DNA of 64,000 bases from Thermoplasmata archaeon. GTDB taxonomy: Archaea > Thermoplasmatota > Thermoplasmata > RBG-16-68-12. Where the stretch lies: NCBI GenBank assembly GCA_035636315.1, contig DASPZJ010000048.1, forward strand, positions 908 through 64,907, given 5' to 3'. Below are positions 19,401-53,428 of this stretch, in pieces. The stretch's first letter is position 1. Every line of letters begins with the position of its first letter. The position numbers and the translations under genes were made by a program. The notes under the pieces are model-generated. The model was not told the origin of the DNA and did not search any database. It saw only the letters and a list, made by a program, of their open reading frames with translations.

Positions 19401-20251
19401 GGATCCGCGCGCGGCCGATCGCTCCCGGTCGGGCGACCGGGACCGCCCTCGTCCATCCGCAGCCATTCTCCTTCGTGGGCGGGGTGGATCCGAGGACCGG
19501 GGCCGTGCTCGACCGCGGCGCGCCCGCGCCGGGACGTTCGCTCGCGGGGCGCGTGTTCGCCTTCCCGCATGGAAAGGGGAGCACGGTCGGGTCGTACGTG
19601 CTCTACGGCCTGGGACGGCGCGGCGTGGGGCCGGCGGCGATCGTGAACTCGCGCGCCGAAGCGATCGTCGCGGTCGGCGCCGTCCTCGCGGGCGTCCCGA
19701 TGGTCGACCGAGTGGATGTCGGAGGAATCCGGTCGGAGGATCGGATCACGGTCGATGGGGATCGCGGCGTCGTCGAGCTCCCCGAGGTACGTGGGCGCGC
19801 CGTCGTGTCCGCGGTCCTCCGAAACCATGGACGGATCCTGATCGTCCGGCGGAGCGAAGCGGTCGGGAGCTTCCAGGGTCGCTGGTCCGCGGTATCCGGC
19901 TACATCGAGGGGCGAGAGGATCCGCGCGACCGCGCGGTCCGCGAGGTCCGGGAGGAGACGGGCCTCCGACGTCTCGTCCTTCGGGCGACCGGGCAGCCGG
20001 TGCTCGCACGGACCGACGCCACGGTGTACGTCGTCCATCCGTTCCTCTTCGACGTCCCGAGCCGCGCGGTCCGACTCGACTGGGAGAACGTCGATCACGC
20101 GTGGGTCCGGCCCGAGGACCTGGGCCGATACGACACGGTCCCCCGACTGGAGGACGTCATCGGGTCCGTCCTGCCGTCGACCGCGTCGACTCCCAGGCCG
20201 TCCCCGAGGCGTCCCCGGAAGACGATCAGGAAGACGGTTTCCCCGGGATGA
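19397..20251 (+). CDS. AcnX small subunit (DUF126-like) fused to C-terminal Nudix hydrolase domain
   Basis: ATG overlaps large-subunit stop (ATGA); N-terminal ~130 aa MRIRARPIAPGRATGTALVHPQPFSFVGGVDPRTG...; C-terminal perfect Nudix box GYIEGREDPRDRAVREVREETGL. Confidence 0.6.
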   Translation: MRIRARPIAPGRATGTALVHPQPFSFVGGVDPRTGAVLDRGAPAPGRSLAGRVFAFPHGKGSTVGSYVLYGLGRRGVGPAAIVNSRAEAIVAVGAVLAGVPMVDRVDVGGIRSEDRITVDGDRGVVELPEVRGRAVVSAVLRNHGRILIVRRSEAVGSFQGRWSAVSGYIEGREDPRDRAVREVREETGLRRLVLRATGQPVLARTDATVYVVHPFLFDVPSRAVRLDWENVDHAWVRPEDLGRYDTVPRLEDVIGSVLPSTASTPRPSPRRPRKTIRKTVSPG

Positions 20252-23200
20252 CTCGGTCCACTTCCCGCTCGAAGAGCGTCAGCTGATGCGCATCGAGGGC
20301 GGACGGGTTGACGGACAGCAGGAGGACCGCCCCGTTGATTGCCACCTGGTCTCGCAGGGACTGGATGAGCCGGAGGATCGTGATGAAATTGTTATTCGTC
20401 ACGAGGTATTCGAGGCCGTCGATCAAGACGACTCCGGTCGTCCCGCCGAGGAATTGCTCGACCGAGAGGGAGAGTTTCTCCAGGTCCTTCGGTCGAACCG
20501 AGTTCTCCTTCCCGACGTTGCTGAGCCAGAGGATCCGGAGGTCCACACCTCCGAACCGCTCACGGACCTTCTTCGGATAGACCCGCGTGATGCAGAGGCC
20601 CGTCTTGCCGGCCTGCAAGGCGGTCCGGAACAAGTCGTACACCTCGCTCGGAGTCTTCTCTTCGATCAGGTACGTCGAGGAGTCCTTCAGAGGCTGCGCG
20701 GCTCCTTTCGCATCGCCGGCCTCGGGGTGACCTGCGCCCGGCGTCTGCGAGGCGCCACACGCGGGGCACACCGTCCACTCGGGTGGAAGCAGGGCGCCGC
20801 AGGCGACGCACGCGACGCGGGGTGCGACTGACGGCCCGATACCCGAGAGCACGAAGCCGCATGCCTCGCATGCGTCCGAGCCGGGCGGGACCGGAGCTTG
20901 GCAGTGGGGACAGGGCGTCGCCTTCGTCGTCGCGGGCTCGCCGCACCGGGGGCATCGTCGCACGCCGGCCGGAATCGTCGCGCCGCAGGTCGCACACTCG
21001 ACGTCGGCGGGTCCTTCCTTCGACAGCGCCCCCATGATCCGCTCGGCATCGGACGGTTCGAGGCCCTCGATGGCCGCGAGTTCCGCCTTCGTCGCCGCCT
21101 TGAGAGCGCCGACGCTCTTGTACCCGGCATCGAAGAGGGCCATCGCCTTCGCCGTCGTGATGCCGGGAACCTTCGTGAATTCGCGGAGCGACTCCGACAT
21201 GTGGAGCGGCGTCACCCCGATCGTGACCGAGCGGCCATCGACATCCTTCCATTCGACCACGTACTCCGATTCGACGTCCTTGTCCGTGAACGCGAGTCTG
21301 CGGGACCGCGTCTCCCGCGCCATGAACGCGGCCTGAGGCGCGAGCGTCGCGGCGAACTCCTTGTTCGTCTTGACGACCGTCGCAATGAAATCGTCCACTT
21401 CGAGGTCGATCTCCTTCCGCATCTGTTGCACGCGCCGGATGATCTCTCGGGCGTAGGCCTCCGCCTGGAGCTCCGGCGTCACGCGGAGGTCGAGATACAG
21501 CTCGCCGTGCGGTGTCGTCGCGACGAGGACGTCCGGAGGCACCTGCTTCTCGAATCGCACCATGGACGCGTCGATCGTGACGATCTGGCCTTCCACGCCG
21601 ACCTCGTACGGCCCCCGCTCGAGCGCCTTCCGGATCTCCTCGGCGGGCCGCGCCTCGAGGACCTTCACGATCTTCGGCTGGAGGACCTTGTACGCCTTTC
21701 CGATCGCGGCGGGATCTGGCTTGGCGACGATCGCCATCCCGGGGAACTCGTCCGTGGGCTTGAGGACGGCGAGCTCCTTCGCGTTCGTCAGTTCGAGGAA
21801 GACGCCCTTCAACGAATCGAGGGCGGCGGCCGCACCCGGCGTGGGTGCTCGGACCGCCACGAGCTTCAGCGGCCAGCGGAGCTTGCGGCCTCCCTTCTGC
21901 CGCTCCTTCGACACGACCTCGACGAGCTCTTGCACGATCGCCATCGACGCTTCGAGGTCCTCCTTGCGGCGTCCTTCGATGGTCGAGGGCCAATCGAGCA
22001 TGTGGACGCTGAGCTTGCGGCCGTCGAGACGCTGGTAGATCGCCTCGGCGATGTACGGCGTGATCGGCGCGAGCAGCGCGGCGACCGTCCCGAGCGATTC
22101 GTGCAGGACGCGGTAGGCGGCGAGCTTGTCACGGTCCGTCGCATCGGTCCACGTCCGTTCGCGGACGAGCTTGACGTACCAGCGGGACAAGTCGTCCAGG
22201 ATGAACGACTCGACGGCGCGGTACGCTCGGTGGAGGCTGTACGTCGCCATCTCGGCGTCGACCGTCGCCTTCACGCCCTCGAGGCGCGAGAGGAGCCAGC
22301 GGTCCTCGTGTCGAAGATGGCCCTCGACGTTCGGCGCGCCCGGTGCAAACGGATCGAACCGATCCAGTACCATGTACGTCGTCGCGAATCGGAGGACGTT
22401 CCAAAGGATATTCAGGGTGCGAAGGGCCGTCCGGACCCCGTCCTCTTGGAACGTGATGTCGTCCCAGGGAGCGTTCACGAGGACCATGTAGAGGCGGAGC
22501 GCGTCGACGCCGAACTTGTCCACGACCGTCGACGGCTCGACGTAATTCCCGAGGGACTTGTGCATCTGCCTACCATCTGGCCCGTTCACCCATCCGTGCA
22601 TAAGGACGGATTCGTACGGGGCACGGTCGAAGGCGACGACGCCGGCGGCGAGTTGCGAGTTGAACCAGCCGCGCGTCTGGTCCGGACCCTCGACGATCCA
22701 ATCCGCGGGCCACCACCGCTTGAACTCGTCCTCCCCCGCCGGATAGCCGAGGCTCGCCCAGGTCGAGACGCCGCTGTCGAACCAGACATCGACGATGTCG
22801 CGCACCCGCGCCATCGTCCCGCCGCACTCGCCGCACGGCAGGGTGACGGCATCGATGCCCGGCCGGTGGAGGTCCATGCCGTCCTGGTAGCCGCGGCCCT
22901 GCCGGAGTTCCACGGACGACCCAACGACGATCCAGTGGCGGCACTTTACGCACCGCCAGATCGGGAGAGGGATGCCCCAGTACCGCTGTCGGGAAACGCA
23001 CCAGTCGCGCAGGTCCTCCGTCCAGTGGAGCTGCCGGGCGGAGCCGGCCCAGTCCGGGTACCACCGGACGCGCCGCACCTCGTCGACCATCTTCGGCTTG
23101 ATGTCGGAGACCTTCAGGAACCATTGGACCGTGGCGCGGAACAGGATCGGCGTCTTGCACCGCCAGCAGTGGCCGTAGGCGTGGACGAGGGTCCCTTCGG

Positions 23201-24365
23201 CGAACAGCGCGCCCGCGGACCGCAGATCGTCGATGATGATCGGGTTCGCCTCTTTCACGTGTTTCCCGGCGTACTCGCCGGCGTCCGGCGTGAAGTGCCC
23301 CCGCTCGTCGACCGGGGAGAACGCCGGCAGGCCGAGCCGCTGCCCGAGCTCGAAGTCCTCCGGACCGTGACCGGGCGCGGAGTGGACCAGGCCCGTGTGC
23401 TCGGCCTCGACGACCTCGGACGCCACGACCTTGTGCACCCAATCGCCTTTGATGCCGGCCTGGTACGGGATCCGCGGGGCGAGCGGATGCAGGTACGCGC
23501 GGCCGACGAGCCGGTCCCCCGTCGTTCGTTCGGCGATGTCGTACGAGGCAATGCCACCGAGCGCCATCACCGTCGGGACCGCGGATTCCATCATCCAGAC
23601 GTACTCCGCCTTGTCGCCCGAACCAAACCGCACCTTGGCGTACGAGAACTGCGGATGGATCGCGATCGCGAGATTCGCGGGTAGCGTCCACGGCGTCGTG
23701 GTCCAAATGAGCAGGGATTCCTTCAGATGGCCCGCGAGCGGGAACTTCACGTAGATCGATGGATCGGTCTCGTCCGCGTACTCGACCTCCGCGTCCGCCA
23801 GGGCTGTCTCGTCCCGCGTGCACCATTGGATCGATCGCAGCGCTTCGTATAGGAGCCCCCTCTCGTACGCGCGCTTCAGGGTCCACCATGCGCCTTCGAT
23901 GTACTCGTTGCGGATCGTCATGTAGGGACGGTCCCAGTCCAGCCAGACACCGAGCGATTGGAACTGCTCCGTCATCTTCTTCAGGAGGTCCAGGGAGAAG
24001 TTCCGGCAGGTGTCGATGAACTTCGCGATTCCGAGGTCCTCGATCTCCTTCTTGTTCGTGATCCCGAGGGTCTTCTCGACCTGGACCTCGATCGGGAGGC
24101 CATGCATGTCGTAACCCGGCTGGTCGCGGACGCGGAAGCCCCGCATCCGGCGGTAGCGGACGACGGCGTCCTTGATCGTCTTGTTCAGCACCTGTCCAAG
24201 GTGGATCGTGCCGGTCGTGTACGGCGGGCCGTCGCCGAAGTAGTATTCCTCTCCGCGCTCGCGCGCGGCGACCGTCTTCGGGTAGACTTTCGCGCGCGTC
24301 CAGAATTCCTGGACCTGACGCTCTAGCTCCGCTGGAAGGTACGACTTCTCCGCCTGCTTGATCAT
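20226..24365 (-). CDS. ileS: isoleucyl-tRNA synthetase, continuing in frame without a stop into a ~324-aa HhH / multi-zinc-ribbon / DUF835-like module
   Basis: Start taken at MIKQAEKSY (ORF track 24398); class I motifs PPYTTGTIHLGQ and KSLGN, editing and anticodon domains; IleRS-like end ...SVTIGVTPLHM at ~21201, then SLREFTKVPGITTAKAM... (HhH), 4 CxxC pairs, then DUF835-like GLCITR...VLIDGLEYL... Confidence 0.8.
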   Translation of the reverse strand: MIKQAEKSYLPAELERQVQEFWTRAKVYPKTVAARERGEEYYFGDGPPYTTGTIHLGQVLNKTIKDAVVRYRRMRGFRVRDQPGYDMHGLPIEVQVEKTLGITNKKEIEDLGIAKFIDTCRNFSLDLLKKMTEQFQSLGVWLDWDRPYMTIRNEYIEGAWWTLKRAYERGLLYEALRSIQWCTRDETALADAEVEYADETDPSIYVKFPLAGHLKESLLIWTTTPWTLPANLAIAIHPQFSYAKVRFGSGDKAEYVWMMESAVPTVMALGGIASYDIAERTTGDRLVGRAYLHPLAPRIPYQAGIKGDWVHKVVASEVVEAEHTGLVHSAPGHGPEDFELGQRLGLPAFSPVDERGHFTPDAGEYAGKHVKEANPIIIDDLRSAGALFAEGTLVHAYGHCWRCKTPILFRATVQWFLKVSDIKPKMVDEVRRVRWYPDWAGSARQLHWTEDLRDWCVSRQRYWGIPLPIWRCVKCRHWIVVGSSVELRQGRGYQDGMDLHRPGIDAVTLPCGECGGTMARVRDIVDVWFDSGVSTWASLGYPAGEDEFKRWWPADWIVEGPDQTRGWFNSQLAAGVVAFDRAPYESVLMHGWVNGPDGRQMHKSLGNYVEPSTVVDKFGVDALRLYMVLVNAPWDDITFQEDGVRTALRTLNILWNVLRFATTYMVLDRFDPFAPGAPNVEGHLRHEDRWLLSRLEGVKATVDAEMATYSLHRAYRAVESFILDDLSRWYVKLVRERTWTDATDRDKLAAYRVLHESLGTVAALLAPITPYIAEAIYQRLDGRKLSVHMLDWPSTIEGRRKEDLEASMAIVQELVEVVSKERQKGGRKLRWPLKLVAVRAPTPGAAAALDSLKGVFLELTNAKELAVLKPTDEFPGMAIVAKPDPAAIGKAYKVLQPKIVKVLEARPAEEIRKALERGPYEVGVEGQIVTIDASMVRFEKQVPPDVLVATTPHGELYLDLRVTPELQAEAYAREIIRRVQQMRKEIDLEVDDFIATVVKTNKEFAATLAPQAAFMARETRSRRLAFTDKDVESEYVVEWKDVDGRSVTIGVTPLHMSESLREFTKVPGITTAKAMALFDAGYKSVGALKAATKAELAAIEGLEPSDAERIMGALSKEGPADVECATCGATIPAGVRRCPRCGEPATTKATPCPHCQAPVPPGSDACEACGFVLSGIGPSVAPRVACVACGALLPPEWTVCPACGASQTPGAGHPEAGDAKGAAQPLKDSSTYLIEEKTPSEVYDLFRTALQAGKTGLCITRVYPKKVRERFGGVDLRILWLSNVGKENSVRPKDLEKLSLSVEQFLGGTTGVVLIDGLEYLVTNNNFITILRLIQSLRDQVAINGAVLLLSVNPSALDAHQLTLFEREVDRVIPGKPSS

Positions 24366-24710
24366 CGCAGCCCCTCTCCCGGGGAATCGGGCCACCAAGA
24401 GGCTTCTTCATCGCCTCGGAGCGGCGGTCCGTTTATGCCAATAGCCATATTAAAAAGTGCGGGCCTACGCGGCTGCGTTCCACGGCCCCGCCCCTAACTC
24501 CGGTCGTGGAACAATCTGCTACGGCCGTGGAACAGGGAACGCCGCATTGGGTCGGTAGTCGTTGAATGGCGCGACGCCAGGGCATTGCCTCCAAGACGTG
24601 GACCGGACGAAATCGATAAAACGCCGGTGCCGATTCCGCCCGGCATGGCCAAGCCCGGCGACATCACATCTGTTCTGAACGTATAAGTATCCTCGCAGCC
24701 TTCAGTCAAA

Positions 24711-47266: not shown

Positions 47267-47434
47267 TCAGTGGAGGAGCGCCTTGGGCTTCGCCTTCCGC
47301 GGCTCCAGGGTCTCGATGGCGATCGGCTTGACGATCGGATCGTCCTCGGCCGCCTCGAGCTCTTCGTCCGCTTCTTCCTCTGCGAGCGCCCGCCAGAACG
47401 CCCGCATGCGGGCGTCGTAGTATTCGTCGCACAT
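47267..47434 (-). CDS. small acidic hypothetical protein (55 aa; alternative start 47473)
   Basis: MCDEYYDARMRAFWRALAEEEADEELEAAEDDPIVKPIAIETLEPRKAKPKALLH; strong GC3 codon bias versus antisense ORF 47270..47548. Confidence 0.3.
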   Translation of the reverse strand: MCDEYYDARMRAFWRALAEEEADEELEAAEDDPIVKPIAIETLEPRKAKPKALLH

Positions 47435-47610
47435 CGTCGCGCCTTTGGGACCCTCAGCGCTTGGAGGATACAATACGCTTTCTCATTCCGAGCGCTCGCG
47501 GCCGCGGCGGAATGGGTGGCAGGCACGGGCTCGGCGTATCGGGGCTGATAACATTCCCATAACTTTTAAGCGGGTCTCCCCGGCTATGCCACGTCGCGCG
47601 GCGGTCTTTC

Positions 47611-48174
47611 ATGGAAGTAAAGCGGATGAAAGTGAAGGTGTGCCTCGTCGGCGAGGCGGCCGTCGGGAAGACGTCGCTCATCCGCCGGTTCGTCTTGGAC
47701 AACTTCGACGACAAGTACATCCAGACGCTCGGCACGAAGGTCTCGAAGAAAGAACTCACGTCCTCGGTGCCCGAAGGCGCCGGCGAGCTCAAGATCGACA
47801 TGACGATCTGGGACATCATGGGTCAGAAGGGGTTCCGGGAACTCCTCAAGGAAGCGTACTTCTACGGTGCCCGGGGGATCCTCGCGGTGTGCGACGTCAC
47901 CCGCCGGAAGACCCTCGACGATCTCGACGACTGGATCGAAGGCGTCTACAGCGTCACCGGGAAGATCCCGATCGAGTTCCTGGGGAACAAGGTCGACCTG
48001 AAGGACCAGGCACAGATCACGGAGGACGAGATGGTCCAGGCGGCGCGCGCGTACGACAGTCCCTTCCATTTCACCTCCGCCAAGACGGGCGTCAACGTCG
48101 AGACCGCCTTCCAGTCCCTCGCCGAACGTGTCGCGAAAGAGCGCTACACCCGGAAGGTTATCCCCGAAGAATGA
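47611..48174 (+). CDS. Rab-like small GTPase (Ras superfamily), paralog 1
   Basis: G1 GEAAVGKTS, switch I YIQTLGTKV, G3 WDIMGQ, G4 GNKVD, G5 TSAK; 187 aa, no C-terminal Cys. Confidence 0.75.
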   Translation: MEVKRMKVKVCLVGEAAVGKTSLIRRFVLDNFDDKYIQTLGTKVSKKELTSSVPEGAGELKIDMTIWDIMGQKGFRELLKEAYFYGARGILAVCDVTRRKTLDDLDDWIEGVYSVTGKIPIEFLGNKVDLKDQAQITEDEMVQAARAYDSPFHFTSAKTGVNVETAFQSLAERVAKERYTRKVIPEE

Positions 48175-48309
48175 GAATCGTCAGGGGCAATCGGAGCGAG
48201 GACAAGCCGCCCTTACTCTAACTCTTCCTGATGCCGATCGGCGCTCGTCGCTGAAGATTGAGAGCGAACAGGGTGGGACGGCGACTCCCCCAGGCGCATA
48301 TCGACGACC

Positions 48310-48322
48310 GATAATACTTATC
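48310..48322. promoter_or_regulatory. palindrome GATAA-TAC-TTATC upstream of GTPase paralog 2, followed by TATA-like ACATAAAT (~48349)
   Basis: Read directly. Confidence 0.3.
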
Positions 48323-48379
48323 AGGGACGATACTCGCGTCCTCACGGTACATAAATCAGCGCCGGGTTGGGCGTCGTTG

Positions 48380-48934
48380 ATGGCGGTGCCCGCGTTGGTC
48401 GGCCAGAAGCACGTCAAGGTGAAAGTGTGCTTGGTCGGCGACGTCGCCGTCGGAAAGACATCCCTCATCAAGCGGTACGTGCAGGACGCGTTCGAGGACC
48501 GGTACATCGCGACCGTTGGGACCAAGGTCACGAAGAAGACGGTCGACGTGATGTGGAGAGGCGCGAACGCGAGCCTCGACATGATGGTGTGGGACATCAT
48601 GGGGGAGAAAGGGTTCCGAGCGCTCCTCCGTGACGCGTACTTCGAGGGCTCCCACGGCGTGATCGCGGTCTGCGACATGACCCGCAAGGATACGTTCTAC
48701 GACCTGAACAACTGGGTGCAGATGATCCGGAAGCAGGTGGGCAACGTCCCCATCGTCTTCCTGGGAAACAAGTTCGATCTGAAGGAGCGCCTCGTCGTGA
48801 GCGAGGAGGAACTCGCGCGGATGGGCACGATCCACAACGCGAAGCACTTCGTCACTTCGGCGAAGACCGGCCAGGGAGTCAACGAGGCGTTCAAGGTCCT
48901 CGGGGACGCGATCGCGCACGGCGGCGATGCGTGA
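48380..48934 (+). CDS. Rab-like small GTPase, paralog 2 (switch II Gln replaced by Glu)
   Basis: MAVPALVGQKHVKVKVCLVGDVAVGKTS..., WDIMGEKGF, GNKFD, TSAK; ORF-track start 48128 rejected. Confidence 0.75.
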   Translation: MAVPALVGQKHVKVKVCLVGDVAVGKTSLIKRYVQDAFEDRYIATVGTKVTKKTVDVMWRGANASLDMMVWDIMGEKGFRALLRDAYFEGSHGVIAVCDMTRKDTFYDLNNWVQMIRKQVGNVPIVFLGNKFDLKERLVVSEEELARMGTIHNAKHFVTSAKTGQGVNEAFKVLGDAIAHGGDA

Positions 48935-48966
48935 GCCGCCGCGGCGCATCGAGTCAAGACGTGCGT

Positions 48967-48984
48967 GTTATCTCATCAGATAAC
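48967..48984. promoter_or_regulatory. perfect palindrome GTTATCT-CATC-AGATAAC upstream of GTPase paralog 3, followed by TATA box TTTATAAT (~48998-49007)
   Basis: Read directly. Confidence 0.35.
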
Positions 48985-49047
48985 CGTTGAGCAATTCCTT
49001 TATAATCTGAGCCTCGTGAGCGCGACGCAACCCGTCCGGGGACTTCC

Positions 49048-49581
49048 ATGGACCGCCAGCGAATGAAGGTCAAGATCTGCCTCGTCGGGGAGGGCGCGGT
49101 CGGCAAGACGTGCCTGATTCGCCGATTCATCCAGGACCAATTCGATGATCGATACATCTCCACGTTGGGCGCGAAGGTCTCGAAGAAGGAGATCAAGGTC
49201 GACGGCCCGAACGGGGGCACGGACATCGACATGACGATCTGGGACATCATGGGCGAGAAGGGATTCCGCGAATTGCTGAAGGAAGCGTACTTCCACGGGG
49301 CCCAAGGCGTCCTCGCCGTGTGCGACGTCACGCGGAGGGAGACGCTCGACGACCTCGACGAATGGGTCGCCGCGGTCGTGAAGGTCACGGGCAACATTCC
49401 GATCGAGTACCTCGCGAACAAAGCGGACCTCCGAGACCAGATGGCGGTGAAGGAAGCCGACGTAAAGCGAGCCGCCGAGTCCCACGGCGCTCCCTGGATG
49501 TTCACGTCGGCGAAGACGGGCGACAACGTCGAGCGCGCGTTCGCAAAGCTCGCGCAGATGATCGCGGGTCCGAGTGCGTGA
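49048..49581 (+). CDS. Rab-like small GTPase, paralog 3 (switch II Glu)
   Basis: GEGAVGKTC, YISTLGAKV, WDIMGEKGF, ANKADL, TSAK; 177 aa. Confidence 0.75.
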   Translation: MDRQRMKVKICLVGEGAVGKTCLIRRFIQDQFDDRYISTLGAKVSKKEIKVDGPNGGTDIDMTIWDIMGEKGFRELLKEAYFHGAQGVLAVCDVTRRETLDDLDEWVAAVVKVTGNIPIEYLANKADLRDQMAVKEADVKRAAESHGAPWMFTSAKTGDNVERAFAKLAQMIAGPSA

Positions 49582-49607
49582 GCCCGTTTCGGTTCGCGAT
49601 TTGTCCC

Positions 49608-49650
49608 GAGAGCGACAGAACTTTTCTGCTCTCTCATTCCTGTCTTCTAG
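49608..49650 (+). terminator. hairpin (GAGAGCGACAGAA-CTTT-TCTGCTCTCTC) followed by T/C-rich tract after GTPase 3
   Basis: Read directly; archaeal-style T-rich terminator. Confidence 0.35.
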
Positions 49651-49715
49651 GTCAAAGTGTTTAAGTAGAAGGCTCGTGTATTCGAACGTGACCAACGCGC
49701 GGGGCCGGTCAAAAC

Positions 49716-51701
49716 ATGGTGGAGACCGCGGGAGAACCGGACGAGCTGCCCCCGGTGGATTCCTGGATTAACAAGGTGGATTTCCGCAGCACCGCCGAGG
49801 TCAAGATCCCGGAGAGGCTCGTCGACCAGGTGATCGGTCAGGAGCGGGCTGTCGAGGTCATCCGGAAGGCTTCGGAGCAGAAGCGGCACGTCATGCTCAT
49901 CGGCGATCCGGGCACCGGCAAGTCGATGCTCGCTCGCGCGATGACGGAACTCCTTCCGCGGGACGAACTCCAGGATATTATCGTCTATCACAACCCCGAG
50001 GACCCGAACGAGCCGAAGATCCGCGTCGTGCCCGCCGGCAAGGGCCGGGAGATCGTCAACGCCCAGAAGGCGGAGGCGATGCAGCGACGCGAACAGAAGG
50101 CCTCGATGGTCATGACGATCGTGTTCTTCATCATCGGCCTCAGCGTGATCATGTCGTATAACTGGGGGGGACCGTCTCCCGGTTTCAACCCGGAAGCGCC
50201 GCAGATCATCCTGTTCGGCATCTTGGTTGCGGCAATCATCTACATCGCGAGCCGCTACACGGGACACCGCCAGGAGAACCTGATGGTGCCCAAGCTCCTC
50301 GTGAGCCACACCCCGGACGAGTCTCCGCCGTTCATCGACGCGACCGGCAGCCACGCGGGCGCCCTCCTCGGGGACGTGAAGCACGACCCGTTCCAGAGCG
50401 GCGGCCTCGAGACGCCCGCCCACGAGCGCGTCGAATCCGGTGCGATTCACAAAGCGCACAAGGGCGTCCTGTTCGTCGACGAGATCAACGTGCTCCGAAT
50501 GGAGAGCCAGCAGTCGCTGCTGACCGCCATGCAGGAGAAGAAGTTCTCCATCGTCGGCCAGAGCGAGCGGTCCTCCGGCGCGATGGTGAAGACGGAAGCC
50601 GTGCCCTGCGATTTCATCCTCGTGGCCGCGGGGAACCTCGACGCCGTGCAAGGCATGCATCCGGCCCTGCGGTCGCGGATCCGCGGTTACGGTTACGAGA
50701 TCTACATGAAGAGCACGATGCCGGACACGGAAGAGAACCGGCTCAAACTCGTGCGATTCGTCGCGCAAGAGGTCTCGAAGGATCGCAAGATCCCCCATTT
50801 CGACCGCACGGCCGTCCTCGAGATCCTGCGAGAGGCGCAGCGCCGCGCGGGTCGACGCGGCCAGCTCACCCTCCGACTGCGCGAGCTCGGCGGCCTCATT
50901 CGGGTCGCGGGCGACATCGCGCAAGAAGAGGGCACGCCACTCGTCACGGCGAAGAACGTCCTCAACGCAAAGCGCATCGCGCGGTCCCTCGAACAGCAGG
51001 TCGCAGACCGAATGATTGAACGCGGCAAGGAGTACCAGACGTTCATCACGGAAGGCGCGATTGTGGGCATGGTGAACGGCCTCGCGGTGCTCGTCGGCGA
51101 CAACTCGATCGCGGAGTTCAGCGGGATCGTCCTCCCAATCGCGGCGGAGGTCACGCCGGCCCAGGCGAAGCAGGGCGGACGGATCATCGCCACGGGCCGA
51201 CTCGGGGAGATCGCGAAGGAGGCCGTCGAGAACGTCGCCGCCCTGATCAAGAAGTACACGGGCGAAGACATCTCGAATCATGACATCCACGTGCAGTTCG
51301 TCGGCTCGCGGGAAGGGACGGAGGGCGACAGCGCCTCGATCTCCGTCGCCACGGCGGTGATCAGCGCCCTCGAGGAAGTCCCGGTCAGCCAAGCGGTCGC
51401 GATGACGGGCTCGCTGAGCGTCCGCGGGCAGGTCCTGCCCGTCGGCGGCGTCACGGCGAAGATCGAGGCGGCCGCGGAACTCGGGATCAAGAAGGTCGTG
51501 ATTCCCCGAACGAACCTCAAAGACGTCCTGCTCGAGGACAAATACCAGGGAAAGATCGAGATCGTCCCGGTTGACACGCTGAGCGAGGTGCTCGAACAGG
51601 CCCTCGTCGGCCCGAAGAAGTCCGGGTTGATCAGCAAGCTTGCGGCTCTCGTCCCCAAGATGACCCCGGACAAGCCAGGCCCTGCAGCGGTCCCTCACTG
51701 A
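49716..51701 (+). CDS. lonB: archaeal membrane-bound Lon protease (LonB)
   Basis: Walker A GDPGTGKS, two TM helices inserted in AAA domain, Lon protease domain with catalytic Ser (MTGSLSVRGQ) and Lys. Confidence 0.9.
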   Translation: MVETAGEPDELPPVDSWINKVDFRSTAEVKIPERLVDQVIGQERAVEVIRKASEQKRHVMLIGDPGTGKSMLARAMTELLPRDELQDIIVYHNPEDPNEPKIRVVPAGKGREIVNAQKAEAMQRREQKASMVMTIVFFIIGLSVIMSYNWGGPSPGFNPEAPQIILFGILVAAIIYIASRYTGHRQENLMVPKLLVSHTPDESPPFIDATGSHAGALLGDVKHDPFQSGGLETPAHERVESGAIHKAHKGVLFVDEINVLRMESQQSLLTAMQEKKFSIVGQSERSSGAMVKTEAVPCDFILVAAGNLDAVQGMHPALRSRIRGYGYEIYMKSTMPDTEENRLKLVRFVAQEVSKDRKIPHFDRTAVLEILREAQRRAGRRGQLTLRLRELGGLIRVAGDIAQEEGTPLVTAKNVLNAKRIARSLEQQVADRMIERGKEYQTFITEGAIVGMVNGLAVLVGDNSIAEFSGIVLPIAAEVTPAQAKQGGRIIATGRLGEIAKEAVENVAALIKKYTGEDISNHDIHVQFVGSREGTEGDSASISVATAVISALEEVPVSQAVAMTGSLSVRGQVLPVGGVTAKIEAAAELGIKKVVIPRTNLKDVLLEDKYQGKIEIVPVDTLSEVLEQALVGPKKSGLISKLAALVPKMTPDKPGPAAVPH

Positions 51702-51720: not shown

Positions 51721-51888
51721 ATGGAAGATGCGCCCGAGCCGTTCGAATTCTCCGAACCGATGCCCTGCTACGAGCCGAATCCGGCCCTGGCCCCCGGGCA
51801 AGAGGACGGCCGCTGCGTGCACTGCCGCAAGTTCCTGACGCTCGAGTGCCCGTACATCGAGCACTTCCTCGGAGAGGATGAGGAGTGA
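51721..51888 (+). CDS. small Cys-containing (putative zinc-binding) protein, 55 aa
   Basis: MEDAPEPFEFSEPMPCYEPNPALAPGQEDGRCVHCRKFLTLECPYIEHFLGEDEE; stop overlaps GTG start of nadM (GTGA); below ORF-track cutoff. Confidence 0.4.
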   Translation: MEDAPEPFEFSEPMPCYEPNPALAPGQEDGRCVHCRKFLTLECPYIEHFLGEDEE

Positions 51889-52603: not shown

Positions 52604-53428
52604 TCACCACGAGATCAGGTAGCCGCAGTACGGGTCGTCCTTCAGCATGCAGGCGACTTTCGTCACGGTCCCTTGGATCCCGATGAGCGCGAGGAACCCT
52701 TCGTAGGTCCCAAGCCACGCCGCGCATCGCGCCGGGCTGCTCATCCAGTCGTAGTGCTTCATGAGCGCCCGACGGTCCTGGACATCGACTTCGAGACGGC
52801 CATGGTTGTAGTCCCGGTTGTACGCGTTCGGCGAGAGCTCCAGGAGGAGGGGGAGCGGGAGCGCCCGGGTCAGGAGGCGGCGGAGGGACGCGAAATTGCG
52901 GGCCTCCTCGCGGAGCATGGTCCTCGTCGCTTCGTACGTCCCGTCGCCGAAGCGGGATTCGACAAGATCCAGGACCTCCAGCACGGATCGCAGCGGATAC
53001 CACCGGTCGACGTCCAGGCGGGCGGGGTCGATGCCCGCTTCGAGCAGCAACGAATCCGCCGCCGTCCGGCCGCGCCTGACGGATACCCAATGATGGTAGT
53101 TCCGAAACTGGCTCCCCCGCACCATCGGCGCGACGAGCCGGTCTCCGCGCGCATCCGCAACCTCGCTGAAGACCGCGACGCCGAGGTTCGTCGGCGCATA
53201 GAGCTTCCCCCGGCGCTCCGCGCCGACCGATCGAACAAGGCCCGCGCGGACGAGCTCGCCGAGCGTCCGGCTCACGTGCGGGAGCCGCAGGCCGGTGTTC
53301 TTCGCGAGCTGCCCGGGCGTCTTCGGACCCGGGATGACGGCGGCGAGGACCTTCTCACGCTGCCGACTCGCGATCACGTACGAGAGCCGCTCGAGCGAAT
53401 CCGGAGGACGGGCGCGAACCGAGTCCAT
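52604..53428 (-). CDS. transcriptional regulator: N-terminal winged HTH + C-terminal V4R-like domain (tentative)
   Basis: LERLSYVIASRQREKVLAAVIPGPKTPGQLAKNTGLRLPHVSRTLGELVRAGLV HTH; C-terminal KVACMLKDDPYCGYLISW two-Cys motif. Confidence 0.5.
   Translation of the reverse strand: MDSVRARPPDSLERLSYVIASRQREKVLAAVIPGPKTPGQLAKNTGLRLPHVSRTLGELVRAGLVRSVGAERRGKLYAPTNLGVAVFSEVADARGDRLVAPMVRGSQFRNYHHWVSVRRGRTAADSLLLEAGIDPARLDVDRWYPLRSVLEVLDLVESRFGDGTYEATRTMLREEARNFASLRRLLTRALPLPLLLELSPNAYNRDYNHGRLEVDVQDRRALMKHYDWMSSPARCAAWLGTYEGFLALIGIQGTVTKVACMLKDDPYCGYLISW

What the first reader, a model, noticed from the sequence alone, without database searches (positions are those of the whole stretch)
47540..49650. 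Tandem triplet of Rab-like Ras-superfamily GTPases with related palindromic upstream motifs
Three paralogous ~180 aa small GTPases lie between the ribosomal superoperon and lonB. They have Rab-type G1/switch I/G3/G4/G5 motifs (KVCLVG..VGKTSLIRRF; Y..T.G.KV; WDIMGQ/E; NKxD; TSAK) and lack C-terminal prenylation cysteines. Paralog 1 has the switch-II Gln (WDIMGQ); paralogs 2 and 3 have Glu (WDIMGE), suggesting divergent GTPase cycles. Each has its own TATA-like promoter preceded by a GATAA/TTATC-containing element (GATAAC once; GATAA-TAC-TTATC; GTTATCT-CATC-AGATAAC), implying a shared DNA-binding regulator. No Roadblock/MglB or longin-like partner is visible nearby. Eukaryote-like small GTPase arrays are best known from Asgard archaea, so a three-gene array in this non-Asgard-looking context may be a distinct regulatory module.
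Basis: partly seen in the sequence, partly recalled or inferred. Interest (0 to 1): 0.7.

Follow-up and report, generated by a model that had tools for sequence, protein, structure and literature searches.

The report
Co-regulated Rab-like GTPase trio in Thermoplasmata
Three neighbouring genes for Ras/Rab-like molecular switches in a soil archaeon (class Thermoplasmata, not Asgard) each sit behind the same conserved 14-bp DNA palindrome, and this array is kept in order across dozens of related genomes, pointing to a lineage-specific, jointly regulated GTPase signalling module whose function is still unknown.

Summary
Three paralogous small GTPases (187, 184 and 177 aa) lie between rpl3 and lonB.

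- **Family:** they match Pfam Ras (E ~1e-36 to 1e-39). Their best solved relatives, by sequence and by predicted fold, are Rab1/Rab8/Rab27 and a Thorarchaeota Rab. They are far from MglA and score well below Ras against Arf. They form their own Thermoplasmata clade with the signature WDIMG[QE]KGFR.
- **Conservation:** the array G1-G2-G3-LonB-NMNAT recurs in about 60 related MAG loci. Orthology is position-specific. Gene 1 always has Gln; genes 2 and 3 have Glu in every three-gene array; gene 2 has Val at the Ras-Gly12 position in the closer relatives.
- **Shared upstream element:** It occurs exactly three times in the 64 kb window, once per GTPase promoter (0.14 expected). In 775 kb of relatives, 137 of 150 exact copies lie at a fixed distance upstream of array GTPases. 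It ends 11-15 nt before each TATA box, which fits a dimeric transcription-factor site.
- **Partner:** there is no Roadblock gene in the window. In three related contigs a membrane-protein + Roadblock/longin-like operon sits directly upstream of G1, and a fusion joins that second domain to a G1-like GTPase.

Function and regulator remain unknown. Verdict: a new variant of a known kind (prokaryotic Ras-like GTPases), of moderate interest.

The parts
47611..48174 (+). G1: small GTPase, 187 aa. P-loop GEAAVGKT, switch II WDIMGQKGFR (catalytic-type Gln), charged tail KERYTRKVIPEE.
   Evidence: Pfam Ras E 4e-36. The position-1 orthogroup always has Gln and forms its own clade. The AF2 model (pLDDT 85) best matches Rab8, Rab27, Rab1 and Thorarchaeota Rab.
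48380..48934 (+). G2: small GTPase, 184 aa. P-loop GDVAVGKT (Val at the Ras Gly12 position), switch II WDIMGEKGFR (Glu in place of Gln).
   Evidence: Pfam Ras E 2.7e-36. The signature is conserved in position-2 orthologues of the closer relatives. The position-2 genes of the three-gene arrays group together in the NJ tree.
49048..49581 (+). G3: small GTPase, 177 aa. P-loop GEGAVGKT, switch II WDIMGEKGFR.
   Evidence: Pfam Ras E 3.2e-39. 1875 homologues, the named ones from Thermoplasmata / 'Methanobacteriota' MAGs. Best PDB hits are Thorarchaeota Rab and Rab1B at ~1e-28.
47536..47552 (.). Operator O1: GTATC-GGGGCT-GATAAC, upstream of G1.
   Evidence: One of only 3 TATC-N6-GATA hits in the window. 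Conserved at about -74 from the G1 start in orthologous loci.
48318..48333 (.). Operator O2: TTATC-AGGGAC-GATAC, upstream of G2.
   Evidence: Invariant block ATTATCAGGG.CGATACTCGC in six aligned loci.
48967..48984 (.). Operator O3: GTTATC-TCATCA-GATAAC, upstream of G3.
   Evidence: In an unbiased MAFFT alignment of 21 G3 upstream regions, the invariant or nearly invariant columns are essentially the two half-sites and the TATA box.
47564..47570 (+). TATA-like box of the G1 promoter (TTTTAAG; AACGTTTAAG / AACGTTTATATG in relatives). It starts 11 nt after O1 and ends 40 nt before the ATG.
   Evidence: Read from the sequence. Conserved in orthologous loci. Its role as a promoter is inferred, not shown.
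48349..48356 (+). TATA-like box of the G2 promoter (ACATAAAT). It starts 15 nt after O2 and ends 23 nt before the ATG, which suggests a leaderless or near-leaderless mRNA.
   Evidence: Inferred.
48999..49006 (+). TATA box of the G3 promoter (TTTATAAT). It starts 14 nt after O3.
   Evidence: TTTATA is invariant or nearly invariant in 21 loci.
48175..48194 (.). Decayed second copy of operator O2 directly after the G1 stop codon (GAATCGTCAGGGGCAATCGG). It is followed by a ~140-bp insertion found only in the window and L001.
   Evidence: Alignment with L001, L002, L008, L015 and L028.
49716..51701 (+). LonB membrane protease. It is the conserved downstream neighbour of the array, has its own promoter (GGTCAAAGTGTTTAAGTA, 49650-49667) and lacks the operator.
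   Evidence: Pfam Lon_C and LonB_AAA-LID. The adjacency is kept in nearly all loci even where the upstream neighbour changes. No operator is found there.

Best explanation
This is a Thermoplasmata-specific module of paralogous Ras/Rab-like small GTPases: three in this locus, four in some relatives, and at least five per genome in some relatives.

**Transcription.** Each gene is its own transcription unit with an archaeal TATA promoter. All three promoters carry the same operator, TATC-N6-GATA(AC), ending 11-15 nt upstream of the TATA box, where the BRE would lie. The most likely mechanism is that one dimeric DNA-binding regulator, not yet identified, binds the three operators and switches the trio on or off together. 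The position just upstream of BRE/TATA favours an activator, but a repressor is not excluded.

**Proteins.** They are nucleotide-dependent switches that are not redundant. G1 keeps the catalytic-type Gln. G2 and G3 carry Glu, and G2 also carries Val at the Ras-Gly12 position. These differences have been held since before the sampled Thermoplasmata lineages diverged. The three therefore probably have different hydrolysis or regulator requirements.

**Partner.** The likely regulatory partner is a membrane-tethered two-domain Roadblock + longin-like protein, analogous to MglB or Ragulator platforms. This would make the module a membrane-proximal signalling switch rather than a vesicle-traffic Rab system.

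**Shown:** the genes, the family placement, the conservation of order and signatures, the operator's enrichment and conservation, and the Roadblock neighbourhood and fusion.

**Inferred:** transcription-factor binding, the direction of regulation, GTPase kinetics, physical interaction with the Roadblock protein, and the biological output.
For: - **Genes and family:**
- **Conserved array:** L3 / G1 G2 G3 / LonB / NMNAT recurs in about 60 loci from Thermoplasmata MAGs. Orthogroups are position-specific, as are the signatures of positions 1 and 3; position 2's Val holds in the closer relatives.
- **Operator, in the window:** 3 of 3 window hits lie in the GTPase promoters against 0.14 expected. 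A PWM scan finds nothing else in the window.
- **Operator, in relatives:** 137 of 150 exact hits in 775 kb lie 59-95 nt upstream of array GTPase starts, apart from a few outliers. With one mismatch allowed, 191 of 205 array genes carry it, against 13 of 385 random 100-nt windows and 0 of 10 genes of the second GTPase locus type.
- **Operator, conservation pattern:** the half-sites and TATA are conserved while the spacer and flanks are not. The elements would form only weak RNA hairpins: -2.6, -1.1 and -6.4 kcal/mol.
- **Partner, neighbourhood:** a Roadblock/LC7 (PF03259, E 4e-9) two-domain gene sits directly upstream of G1 in L029. Two further contigs, L084 and L086, show the same arrangement with a small TM gene.
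- **Partner, same lineage:** the same protein family is present in MAGs of the window's soil lineage, elsewhere in the genome. There it overlaps a 142-aa TM gene.
- **Partner, second domain:** it is fused to a G1-like GTPase and DUF835 in P0126. It also forms the cytoplasmic tail of ~880-aa receptor-like proteins next to the second GTPase pairs.
Against: - No regulator has been identified. The nearby wHTH gene (52604-53428, PF25213) is syntenic in only 21 loci, and it is missing next to the array in L022 and L030, which keep the operator.
- No expression data, mapped TSS or binding data exist.
- The window itself has no Roadblock gene at BLAST sensitivity. In the window's lineage the Roadblock operon lacks the operator.
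- The adjacency to the Roadblock operon is seen in only three contigs of one sub-lineage.
- The second domain is not significantly Roadblock or longin by sequence. Its fold assignment rests on one AF2 model that was searched as a whole.
- Glu at the Gln61 position is not necessarily inactivating, so the 'divergent cycles' idea is only an inference.
Confidence: 0.6

Rival explanations
1. The array is functionally coupled to LonB. The GTPases act as regulators or adaptors of the membrane-bound LonB protease encoded immediately downstream, and that coupling is why the adjacency is conserved.
For: G-array -> LonB -> NMNAT adjacency holds in nearly all loci, including lineages where the upstream neighbour is argF/SecY or KaiC/DUF835 instead of L3. 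LonB identity falls to about 72% in these. LonB is membrane-anchored, and the candidate Roadblock partner is membrane-tethered.
Against: LonB has its own conserved promoter without the operator. LonB-NMNAT adjacency is equally conserved, so this may simply be a slowly rearranging block next to the ribosomal superoperon. L039 and L040 have the array without LonB downstream. No fusion or co-occurrence test links the two.
Confidence: 0.15
2. They are true Rab-type membrane-traffic GTPases, implying eukaryote-like endomembrane dynamics in a non-Asgard archaeon.
For: The best sequence and fold matches are Rab1, Rab8, Rab27 and Thorarchaeota Rab. NCBI names homologues 'Rab family GTPase'. Longin- and Roadblock-type partners are typical of Rab GEFs.
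Against: - There is no prenylation cysteine and no hypervariable tail.
- RabF1 (IGVDF) is replaced by LGTKV / VGTKV / LGAKV, and switch II reads WDIMG[QE]KGF instead of WDTAGQERF.
- The family branches outside Rab/Ras/Rho/Ran in the NJ tree.
- Published trees could not place the Thermoplasmatales and Aciduliprofundum Rab-like proteins; they form long, divergent branches (PMC4915359). A broader study found no archaeal sequences specifically sister to Rabs (bioRxiv 10.1101/2024.02.28.582541).
Confidence: 0.07
3. The palindromes are not regulator sites. They are chance matches, RNA hairpins or terminators of the preceding gene, or remnants of the duplication that made the paralogues.
For: O2 and O3 lie just downstream of the preceding gene's stop codon (in L002, O2 starts a few nt after the G1 stop). 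O3 could form a -6.4 kcal/mol hairpin. Tandem duplication would copy promoters along with genes.
Against: - O1 is not downstream of a co-directional gene.
- O1 and O2 hairpins are negligible at -2.6 and -1.1 kcal/mol.
- The half-sites are invariant while the spacer drifts freely. That is the pattern of a protein-binding site, not of RNA pairing or neutral duplication remnants.
- The paralogues are only 48-64% identical and the surrounding intergenic DNA is unalignable, yet the 8 core bases persist across about 60 genomes.
- A duplicated copy no longer positioned at a promoter has decayed.
Confidence: 0.04
4. They are MglA-type polarity/motility GTPases or ArvA-type vesiculation GTPases under another name.
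For: A Roadblock (MglB-like) partner is linked to them. ArvA shows that Euryarchaeota do use a small GTPase for vesicle formation (PMC10927574).
Against: - They are 18-21% identical to MglA.
- The G3 Asp is present (WDIMG) and there is no G1-G2 insertion; both features separate Rup/Ras-like proteins from MglA (PMC4316618).
- ArvA is PF01926/Arf-like, has an N-terminal amphipathic helix, and is followed by arvB/arvC (DUF2073 and DUF2072; PMC10927574). Here Ras scores far above Arf and MMR_HSR1, the N-termini are short, and the downstream gene is LonB.
Confidence: 0.03

Closest known systems
Asgard Ras-like (RasL) GTPases, e.g. Thorarchaeota Rab (PDB 7EZB), and eukaryotic Rab1/Rab8
   Same: The single-domain Ras fold with canonical G1-G5 motifs. 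These are the best sequence hits (E ~1e-28, 31-36% identity) and the best fold hits (TM 0.74-0.79). Like Asgard Rab-like proteins, they have no C-terminal cysteine (PMC4915359).
   Different: Switch II reads WDIMG[QE]KGFR rather than WDTAGQERF. RabF1 is absent. Two of the three paralogues have Glu for the catalytic Gln. The host is Thermoplasmata, not Asgard. The genes form a conserved ordered array with a dedicated operator, whereas MK-D1 GTPase genes are generally not in operons with Roadblock, longin or TRAPPC3 genes (PMC10933270).
Rup family (Ras superfamily GTPases of unknown function in prokaryotes), especially Rup2 of Crenarchaeota/Thermoproteaceae
   Same: Small (<240 aa) Ras-like prokaryotic GTPases that keep the G3 Asp, are not MglA, and are highly duplicated within genomes: Rup2 has up to six copies, and this family at least five (PMC4316618).
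   Different: The lineage (Thermoplasmata) and the signature differ. Rup2 has no conserved neighbours and no MglB coupling. This family has a fixed gene order, a shared operator, and neighbourhood and fusion links to Roadblock/longin-like and DUF835 (inactivated KaiC) domains.
MglA-MglB and Rag-Ragulator (small GTPase + Roadblock platform)
   Different: The GTPases are Ras/Rab-like, not MglA or Rag: they lack the Rag C-terminal roadblock domain. The partner is a two-domain Roadblock + longin-like protein. In most genomes, including the window's lineage, it is not adjacent to the GTPases. The interaction is untested.
Archaeal palindromic operators upstream of BRE/TATA, e.g. the TGM site TATCAC-N5-GTGATA of TrmBL1 in Thermococcales (from my own knowledge)
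   Same: An inverted repeat with TATC/GATA-containing half-sites, placed next to BRE/TATA, shared by several promoters.
   Different: The spacing differs: TATC-N6-GATA here against TATC-N9-GATA in TGM. The regulon is restricted to the GTPase array in all the DNA examined. No TrmB-family gene is linked. The resemblance is a lead, not a test.

Membership tests
Ras superfamily small GTPase (Pfam PF00071) | Single ~170-aa G domain with G1 GxxxxGK[ST], switch I Thr, G3 DxxG, G4 NKxD and G5 SAK | tested here: met
   Pfam Ras at 124.5-134.6 bits, full-length matches. All motifs are present and invariant in the three paralogues. The AF2 model has a Ras fold with pTM 0.84.
Rab family sensu stricto | RabF1-F5 motifs (IGVDF, KLQIWDTAGQE, RFrsiT, YYRGA, LVYDIT) | tested here: not met
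   RabF1 is replaced by LGTKV / VGTKV / LGAKV. The RabF2 region reads IDMTIWDIMGQK, RabF3 GFRELL, RabF4 YFYGA / YFEGS / YFHGA (near), and RabF5 AVCDVT (partial). The motif definitions are from PMC4915359 and my own knowledge.
Rab family sensu stricto | C-terminal prenylatable cysteines and a hypervariable tail | tested here: not met
   The tails are ...KERYTRKVIPEE...AHGGDA and ...AGPSA, with no Cys. This is also true of all archaeal Rab-like proteins described so far (PMC4915359).
Rab family sensu stricto | Phylogenetic placement inside the Rab clade | tested here: inconclusive
   The NJ tree places the family as sister to Rab/Ras/Rho/Ran + Thorarchaeota Rab, not inside Rab.
MglA family | Loss of the G3 Asp (group 1), a bacterial G1-G2 insertion, and mglB coupling (PMC4316618) | tested here: not met
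   The G3 Asp is present, there is no insertion, and identity to M. xanthus MglA is 18-21%. Roadblock coupling exists in only three contigs.
Arf/ArvA-type GTPases | Best profile match to Arf/MMR_HSR1, an N-terminal amphipathic helix, and arvB/arvC (DUF2073/DUF2072) downstream | tested here: not met
   Arf scores 37-55 bits against 125-135 for Ras. The N-termini have only about 8-14 residues before beta-1. The downstream gene is LonB. ArvA features are from PMC10927574.
Rup (prokaryotic Ras-like GTPases of unknown function) | <240 aa, single domain, Ras-like rather than MglA, prokaryotic | tested here: met
   The definition is from PMC4316618. The family is not one of the described subgroups (Rup1, bacterial; Rup2, Thermoproteaceae; Rup3, Heimdallarchaeia) by host and signature. 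No joint tree with them was made.
Archaeal transcription-factor operator | A conserved inverted repeat at a fixed position relative to BRE/TATA in several promoters, with half-sites conserved and the spacer free | tested here: met
Archaeal transcription-factor operator | A cognate DNA-binding protein and an effect on transcription | not testable with these tools
   The only lead is the wHTH gene at 52604-53428 (PF25213), which is syntenic in 21 loci.
Roadblock/LC7 (MglB-like) GTPase regulator (the linked partner) | A Robl_LC7 domain with a-b-b-a-b-b-b topology | tested here: met

The most novel reading that the evidence does not exclude
Thermoplasmata, outside the Asgard lineage, maintain a self-contained small-GTPase signalling system of the Asgard/eukaryote type. 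Its components would be:
- at least five Rab-like paralogues in fixed arrays;
- a membrane-tethered Roadblock-longin platform;
- receptor-like proteins ending in the same longin-like domain;
- links to inactivated-KaiC (DUF835) modules;
- a dedicated transcription factor that controls the core trio through TATC-N6-GATAAC.

The trio would act as a GTPase cascade or heteromeric switch (one Gln-type and two Glu-type members) controlling a membrane process, possibly LonB-dependent proteolysis.
Probability: 0.2. Interest if true: 0.75.

Novelty: new variant of a known kind. Interest (0 to 1): 0.5.

Why it matters
Multi-paralogue Ras/Rab-like GTPase sets with Roadblock/longin partners are usually discussed as an Asgard prelude to eukaryotic membrane traffic. 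This locus shows a sizeable, vertically conserved set in Thermoplasmata. It has an ancient division of labour between paralogues (Gln against Glu, and Val at the 'oncogenic' Gly12 position) and a simple, precisely defined operator.

The operator gives an experimental handle that Asgard systems lack. It can be used to fish out the regulator, define the regulon and, through metatranscriptomes, find the conditions under which the switch is used. It also cautions against reading 'Rab family GTPase' annotations in non-Asgard archaea as evidence of trafficking.

Tried and rejected
- **ArvA (archaeal vesiculating GTPase).** Considered and rejected on Pfam profile, N-terminus and neighbours.
- **MglA.** Rejected on motifs and identity.
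- **The neighbouring wHTH gene as the regulator.** It is syntenic in only 21 loci and absent next to arrays that keep the operator. It remains a weak candidate.
- **More operator copies.** A PWM scan of the window found none. 'Other' exact hits in loci lie in a ribosomal-protein coding region or in an AT-rich promoter of one lineage, and look like chance.
- **RNA-hairpin or terminator reading of the palindromes.** Rejected.
- **Representative search.** The top multi-stretch hits (P0124, P0125, P0148, P0153) are eukaryote-type tandem Rab fusions (WDTAGQERF) and irrelevant.
- **Context of the DUF835-GTPase fusion P0126 (L078).** Uninformative.
- **Sequence-profile searches of the second, longin-like domain.** Pfam and PDB searches gave nothing significant. 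Only the AF2 model suggests its fold.
- **Literature.** Makarova et al. 2017 on KaiC hubs could not be read. The statement that DUF835 is an inactivated KaiC rests on PMC5847659.
- **Promoter tool.** The sigma-70 promoter/terminator scanner was not used, because it does not apply to archaeal promoters.
- **Roadblock operon and the operator.** In the window's lineage (L079-L083) the operon has no TATC-N6-GATA. In L084 and L086 its promoter has only a TGATAATC half-site, which is suggestive only.


Full report
**1. Observation**

The region holds three + strand ORFs:
- G1, 47611-48174, 187 aa.
- G2, 48380-48934, 184 aa. I take the ATG that matches the orthologues; the open frame runs back to 48128.
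- G3, 49048-49581, 177 aa.

All three are full-length matches to Pfam Ras (E 4e-36, 2.7e-36, 3.2e-39). Roc scores lower, Arf far lower at 37-55 bits, and the other listed GTPase families (MMR_HSR1, RsgA, Gtr1/RagA) only marginally. NCBIfam gives only the generic small_GTP domain. G1 is 48% identical to G2 and 64% to G3. The G1-G5 motifs are invariant, and none of the three has a C-terminal cysteine. There are no further copies in the window.

Upstream on the - strand lie L3, L4, L23, L2 and S19. Downstream lie LonB, a 55-aa CxxC mini-ORF and an NMN adenylyltransferase-like gene. The window is about 65% GC. The best homologues come from soil and aquifer Thermoplasmata MAGs (EA_xx, SMAG and RBG_16 series). 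One of these (VBMM01000112.1) is 100% identical over the 171 residues of G1 that lie on its contig.

**2. What the proteins are**

- **By sequence.** The best solved relatives are a Thorarchaeota Rab (7EZB, E 1e-28) and Rab1A/B, Rab8A and Rab2.
- **By fold.** An AlphaFold2 model of G1 (pLDDT 85, pTM 0.84) retrieves almost only Rabs from the PDB. These include Rab8, Rab27, Rab1, Rab10, Rab11 and Thorarchaeota Rab, at TM 0.74-0.79.
- **By tree.** In a neighbour-joining tree the Thermoplasmata proteins form one clade. That clade is sister to Rab/Ras/Rho/Ran plus the Thorarchaeota Rab, and well away from Arf and MglA. Identities are 30-36% to Rabs, 27-30% to Ras/Rap and 18-21% to MglA.

The proteins are therefore Ras/Rab-like 'Rup'-type GTPases in the sense of Wuichet & Søgaard-Andersen (PMC4316618), not MglA and not ArvA (PMC10927574).

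They are not Rabs in the strict sense. RabF1 is absent, switch II reads WDIMG[QE]KGFR instead of WDTAGQERF, and there is no prenylation site.

Single Rab-like genes in a Thermoplasmatales archaeon and in Aciduliprofundum were already reported, as long unplaced branches (PMC4915359). NCBI already names homologues 'Rab family GTPase'. The presence of such a gene is therefore not new.

**3. Conservation of the array**

A scan of one genome per GTDB species returned 77 loci, all from Thermoplasmata, Thermoplasmatota, 'Methanomassiliicoccales' or 'Methanobacteriota' MAGs.

- About 60 loci show the same order: G1, G2, G3, LonB, NMNAT, usually with L3/L4 upstream.
- A deeper set (L054-L066, including the complete chromosome CP070767.1) has four tandem GTPases before LonB and different upstream neighbours. 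These are argF/SecY in one lineage and a KaiC ATPase plus a 7TM-DUF835 protein in another.
- The tree groups the proteins by position in the array, so the duplications predate the divergence of these lineages.
- The paralogue signatures are held. Position 1 always has GE[AG]AVGKT and WDIMGQ, with a charged tail. Position 2 has GDVAVGKT (Val at Ras position 12) in the closer relatives, with variants such as GEVAVGKT or GEFAVGKT further out, and WDIMGE. Position 3 has GEGAVGKT and WDIMGE.
- Some of the same genomes carry a second locus with two more paralogues (L071, L074-L077). This gives at least five per genome there.
- Relatives at 45-60% identity that carry a name are again Thermoplasmatota. 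Some are fused to TPR, coiled-coil or DUF835 domains.

**4. The upstream element**

Reading the orthologous upstream regions side by side shows that the shared element is TATC-N6-GATA, usually extended to (G)TTATC-N6-GATAAC.

| Measure | Result |
|---|---|
| Exact hits in the 64 kb window | 3 (47537, 48319, 48969), one before each GTPase gene; 0.14 expected |
| Neighbouring spacings in the window | N4, N5, N8: 0 hits; N7: 2 hits |
| PWM scan of the window | No further site |
| Exact hits in 775 kb of related loci | 150, of which 137 lie upstream of an array GTPase, nearly all 59-95 nt from its start |
| Array genes carrying it (≤1 mismatch) | 191 of 205 |
| Random 100-nt windows carrying it | 13 of 385 |
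| Genes of the second two-gene loci carrying it | 0 of 10 |

An alignment of 21 G3 upstream regions made without reference to the motif has 48% mean column identity. Its invariant or nearly invariant columns are essentially the two half-sites and TTTATA.

The spacer is free and there is no compensatory variation. As RNA, the O1 and O2 elements would be negligible hairpins. O1 is not downstream of a co-directional gene. A duplicated O2 copy stranded by a ~140-bp insertion has decayed. All of this is the behaviour of a binding site for a dimeric protein.

The sites end 11, 15 and 14 nt before the TATA-like boxes, that is, next to where the BRE would lie. From what is established about archaeal promoters, that position is more typical of activators than of repressors. 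This step is inference.

- G1 has a full inverted repeat, not a lone GATAAC.
- The G2 palindrome as drawn (GATAA-TAC-TTATC) is a window-specific overlap.
- The G3 palindrome was correct.

**5. Partners**

The window contains no Roadblock or longin gene detectable by tblastn. Relatives do.

- **Neighbourhood.** In L029, a 287-aa gene with a Roadblock/LC7 domain (PF03259, E 4e-9) lies directly upstream of G1, preceded by a small membrane-protein gene. Two independent metagenome contigs of 42 and 50 kb show the same arrangement. Their Roadblock proteins are 80% and 98% identical to the L029 protein, so at least two lineages are involved. The order there is L3 <- small ORF <- | TM -> Roadblock-X -> G1 -> G2 -> G3 -> LonB -> NMNAT, followed by <- wHTH <- TctA. 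This is the window's locus with two extra genes.
- **Distribution.** The two-domain protein is a conserved Thermoplasmata family with 104 hits. It includes MAGs of the window's own soil lineage. There it lies elsewhere, overlapping a 142-aa multi-pass membrane-protein gene.
- **Recurrence of the second domain.** It is fused between DUF835 and a G1-like GTPase in P0126. It also forms the cytoplasmic tail of ~880-aa receptor-like membrane proteins encoded beside the second GTPase pairs. By sequence alone it is not significantly similar to any Pfam or PDB entry.
- **DUF835.** It is regarded as an inactivated KaiC domain of archaeal signalling (PMC5847659).

Together these links make a Roadblock/longin platform the most likely regulator of the family. 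The interaction itself is untested.

**6. Mechanism proposed**

One unidentified dimeric regulator binds the three operators and co-regulates three separately transcribed, non-redundant GTPase switches. G1 is a conventional Gln-type GTPase. G2 and G3 are Glu-type, and G2 adds Val at position 12, so they probably differ in hydrolysis or in their need for a regulator. The switches probably work at the membrane with the tethered Roadblock/longin platform and receptor-like proteins.

The output is unknown. The persistent adjacency to LonB is the only lead, and it may be mere synteny: LonB has its own operator-less promoter, and L039 and L040 lack LonB downstream of the array.

**7. Comparison, novelty and score**

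The closest known systems are:
- Asgard RasL / Thorarchaeota Rab and eukaryotic Rab1/8 (fold and sequence).
- Rup2 of Thermoproteaceae (multi-copy, archaeal, function unknown).
- MglA-MglB and Rag-Ragulator (GTPase plus Roadblock platform).

I found no paper in the library that combines the Ras superfamily with Thermoplasmatota. Recent classifications list MglA, Rup1-3, RasL, Rag, ArfL and ArfR without a Thermoplasmata group.

The gene family is annotated and has been partly noticed. The following appear undescribed:
- the ordered array;
- the paralogue-specific active-site signatures;
- the operator;
- the Roadblock/longin and DUF835 links.

I rate it a new variant of a known kind, with interest 0.5.

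Noticed in passing
window 20226-24398 (-): A single 1390-aa open frame joins an isoleucyl-tRNA-synthetase-like protein to an HhH-like segment, several zinc ribbons and a C-terminal DUF835 (inactivated KaiC) domain (PF05763, E 8e-33). It is either a real fusion or two genes with no intervening stop codon.
   Followed up: partly
window 47267-47473 (-): A small acidic ORF of 68 aa (or 55 aa from the internal ATG) lies between L3 and G1, divergent from G1. It is conserved by tblastn in roughly 35 related loci and called as a 55-56-aa gene in L084 and L086. It has no Pfam match. Operator O1 lies about 64 nt upstream of it on the other strand.
   Followed up: partly
window 51721-51888 (+): A 55-aa mini-protein with a CxxC...C pattern lies between LonB and the NMNAT-like gene and overlaps the latter's start by 4 nt. 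It is conserved in 31 loci and has no Pfam match.
   Followed up: partly
window 48175-48317: A ~140-bp insertion between the G1 stop and the G2 operator is present only in the window and L001. It begins with a decayed duplicate of the operator (GAATCGTCAGGGGCAATCGG; L001 still reads GAATTATCAGGGGCAATCAG).
   Followed up: yes
window 49650-49667: The LonB promoter block GGTCAAAGTGTTTAAGTA is nearly invariant across the closer loci. It may contain a second, different regulatory site upstream of its TATA box.
   Followed up: no
window 52604-53428 (-): A 274-aa winged-helix regulator (PF25213, HVO_A0261 N-terminal domain) lies downstream of TctA. It is syntenic with the array in 21 close loci and in L084 and L086. 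It is the only nearby candidate for the operator-binding protein.
   Followed up: partly
L056, L057, L059, L060, L062, L063 (about 3300-5720 in L062): In the lineage with four tandem GTPases, a KaiC-family ATPase (PF06745) and a 7TM protein with two DUF835 domains lie divergently upstream of the array. The arrangement is conserved in six loci.
   Followed up: partly
L071, L074, L076, L077 (e.g. L074 5434-6652 and 8320-10956): A second locus type has two further GTPase paralogues with TTAAGTA-type promoters and no TATC-N6-GATA. It is followed by an ~880-aa receptor-like membrane protein with a weak PKD match. In L071, L074 and L077 the cytoplasmic tail of that protein is the same longin-like domain as in the Roadblock-X protein.
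   Followed up: partly
L011 6565-8700: A 2.1-kb insertion between G1 and G2 carries two unknown ORFs (187 and 195 aa). The G2 operator is retained downstream of it.
   Followed up: no
window G1-G3 switch I (residue 35 of G1 and its equivalents): Paralogues with Gln in switch II have D-K-Y in switch I. Most Glu-type paralogues have D-R-Y. The co-variation is incomplete: L039 position 3 and the L076/L077 pairs are exceptions.
   Followed up: no
L082 7500-7530: In the window's lineage, the promoter of the TM + Roadblock-X operon carries a different palindrome, CGATT-GCAA-AATCG, upstream of its TATA-like box.
   Followed up: no
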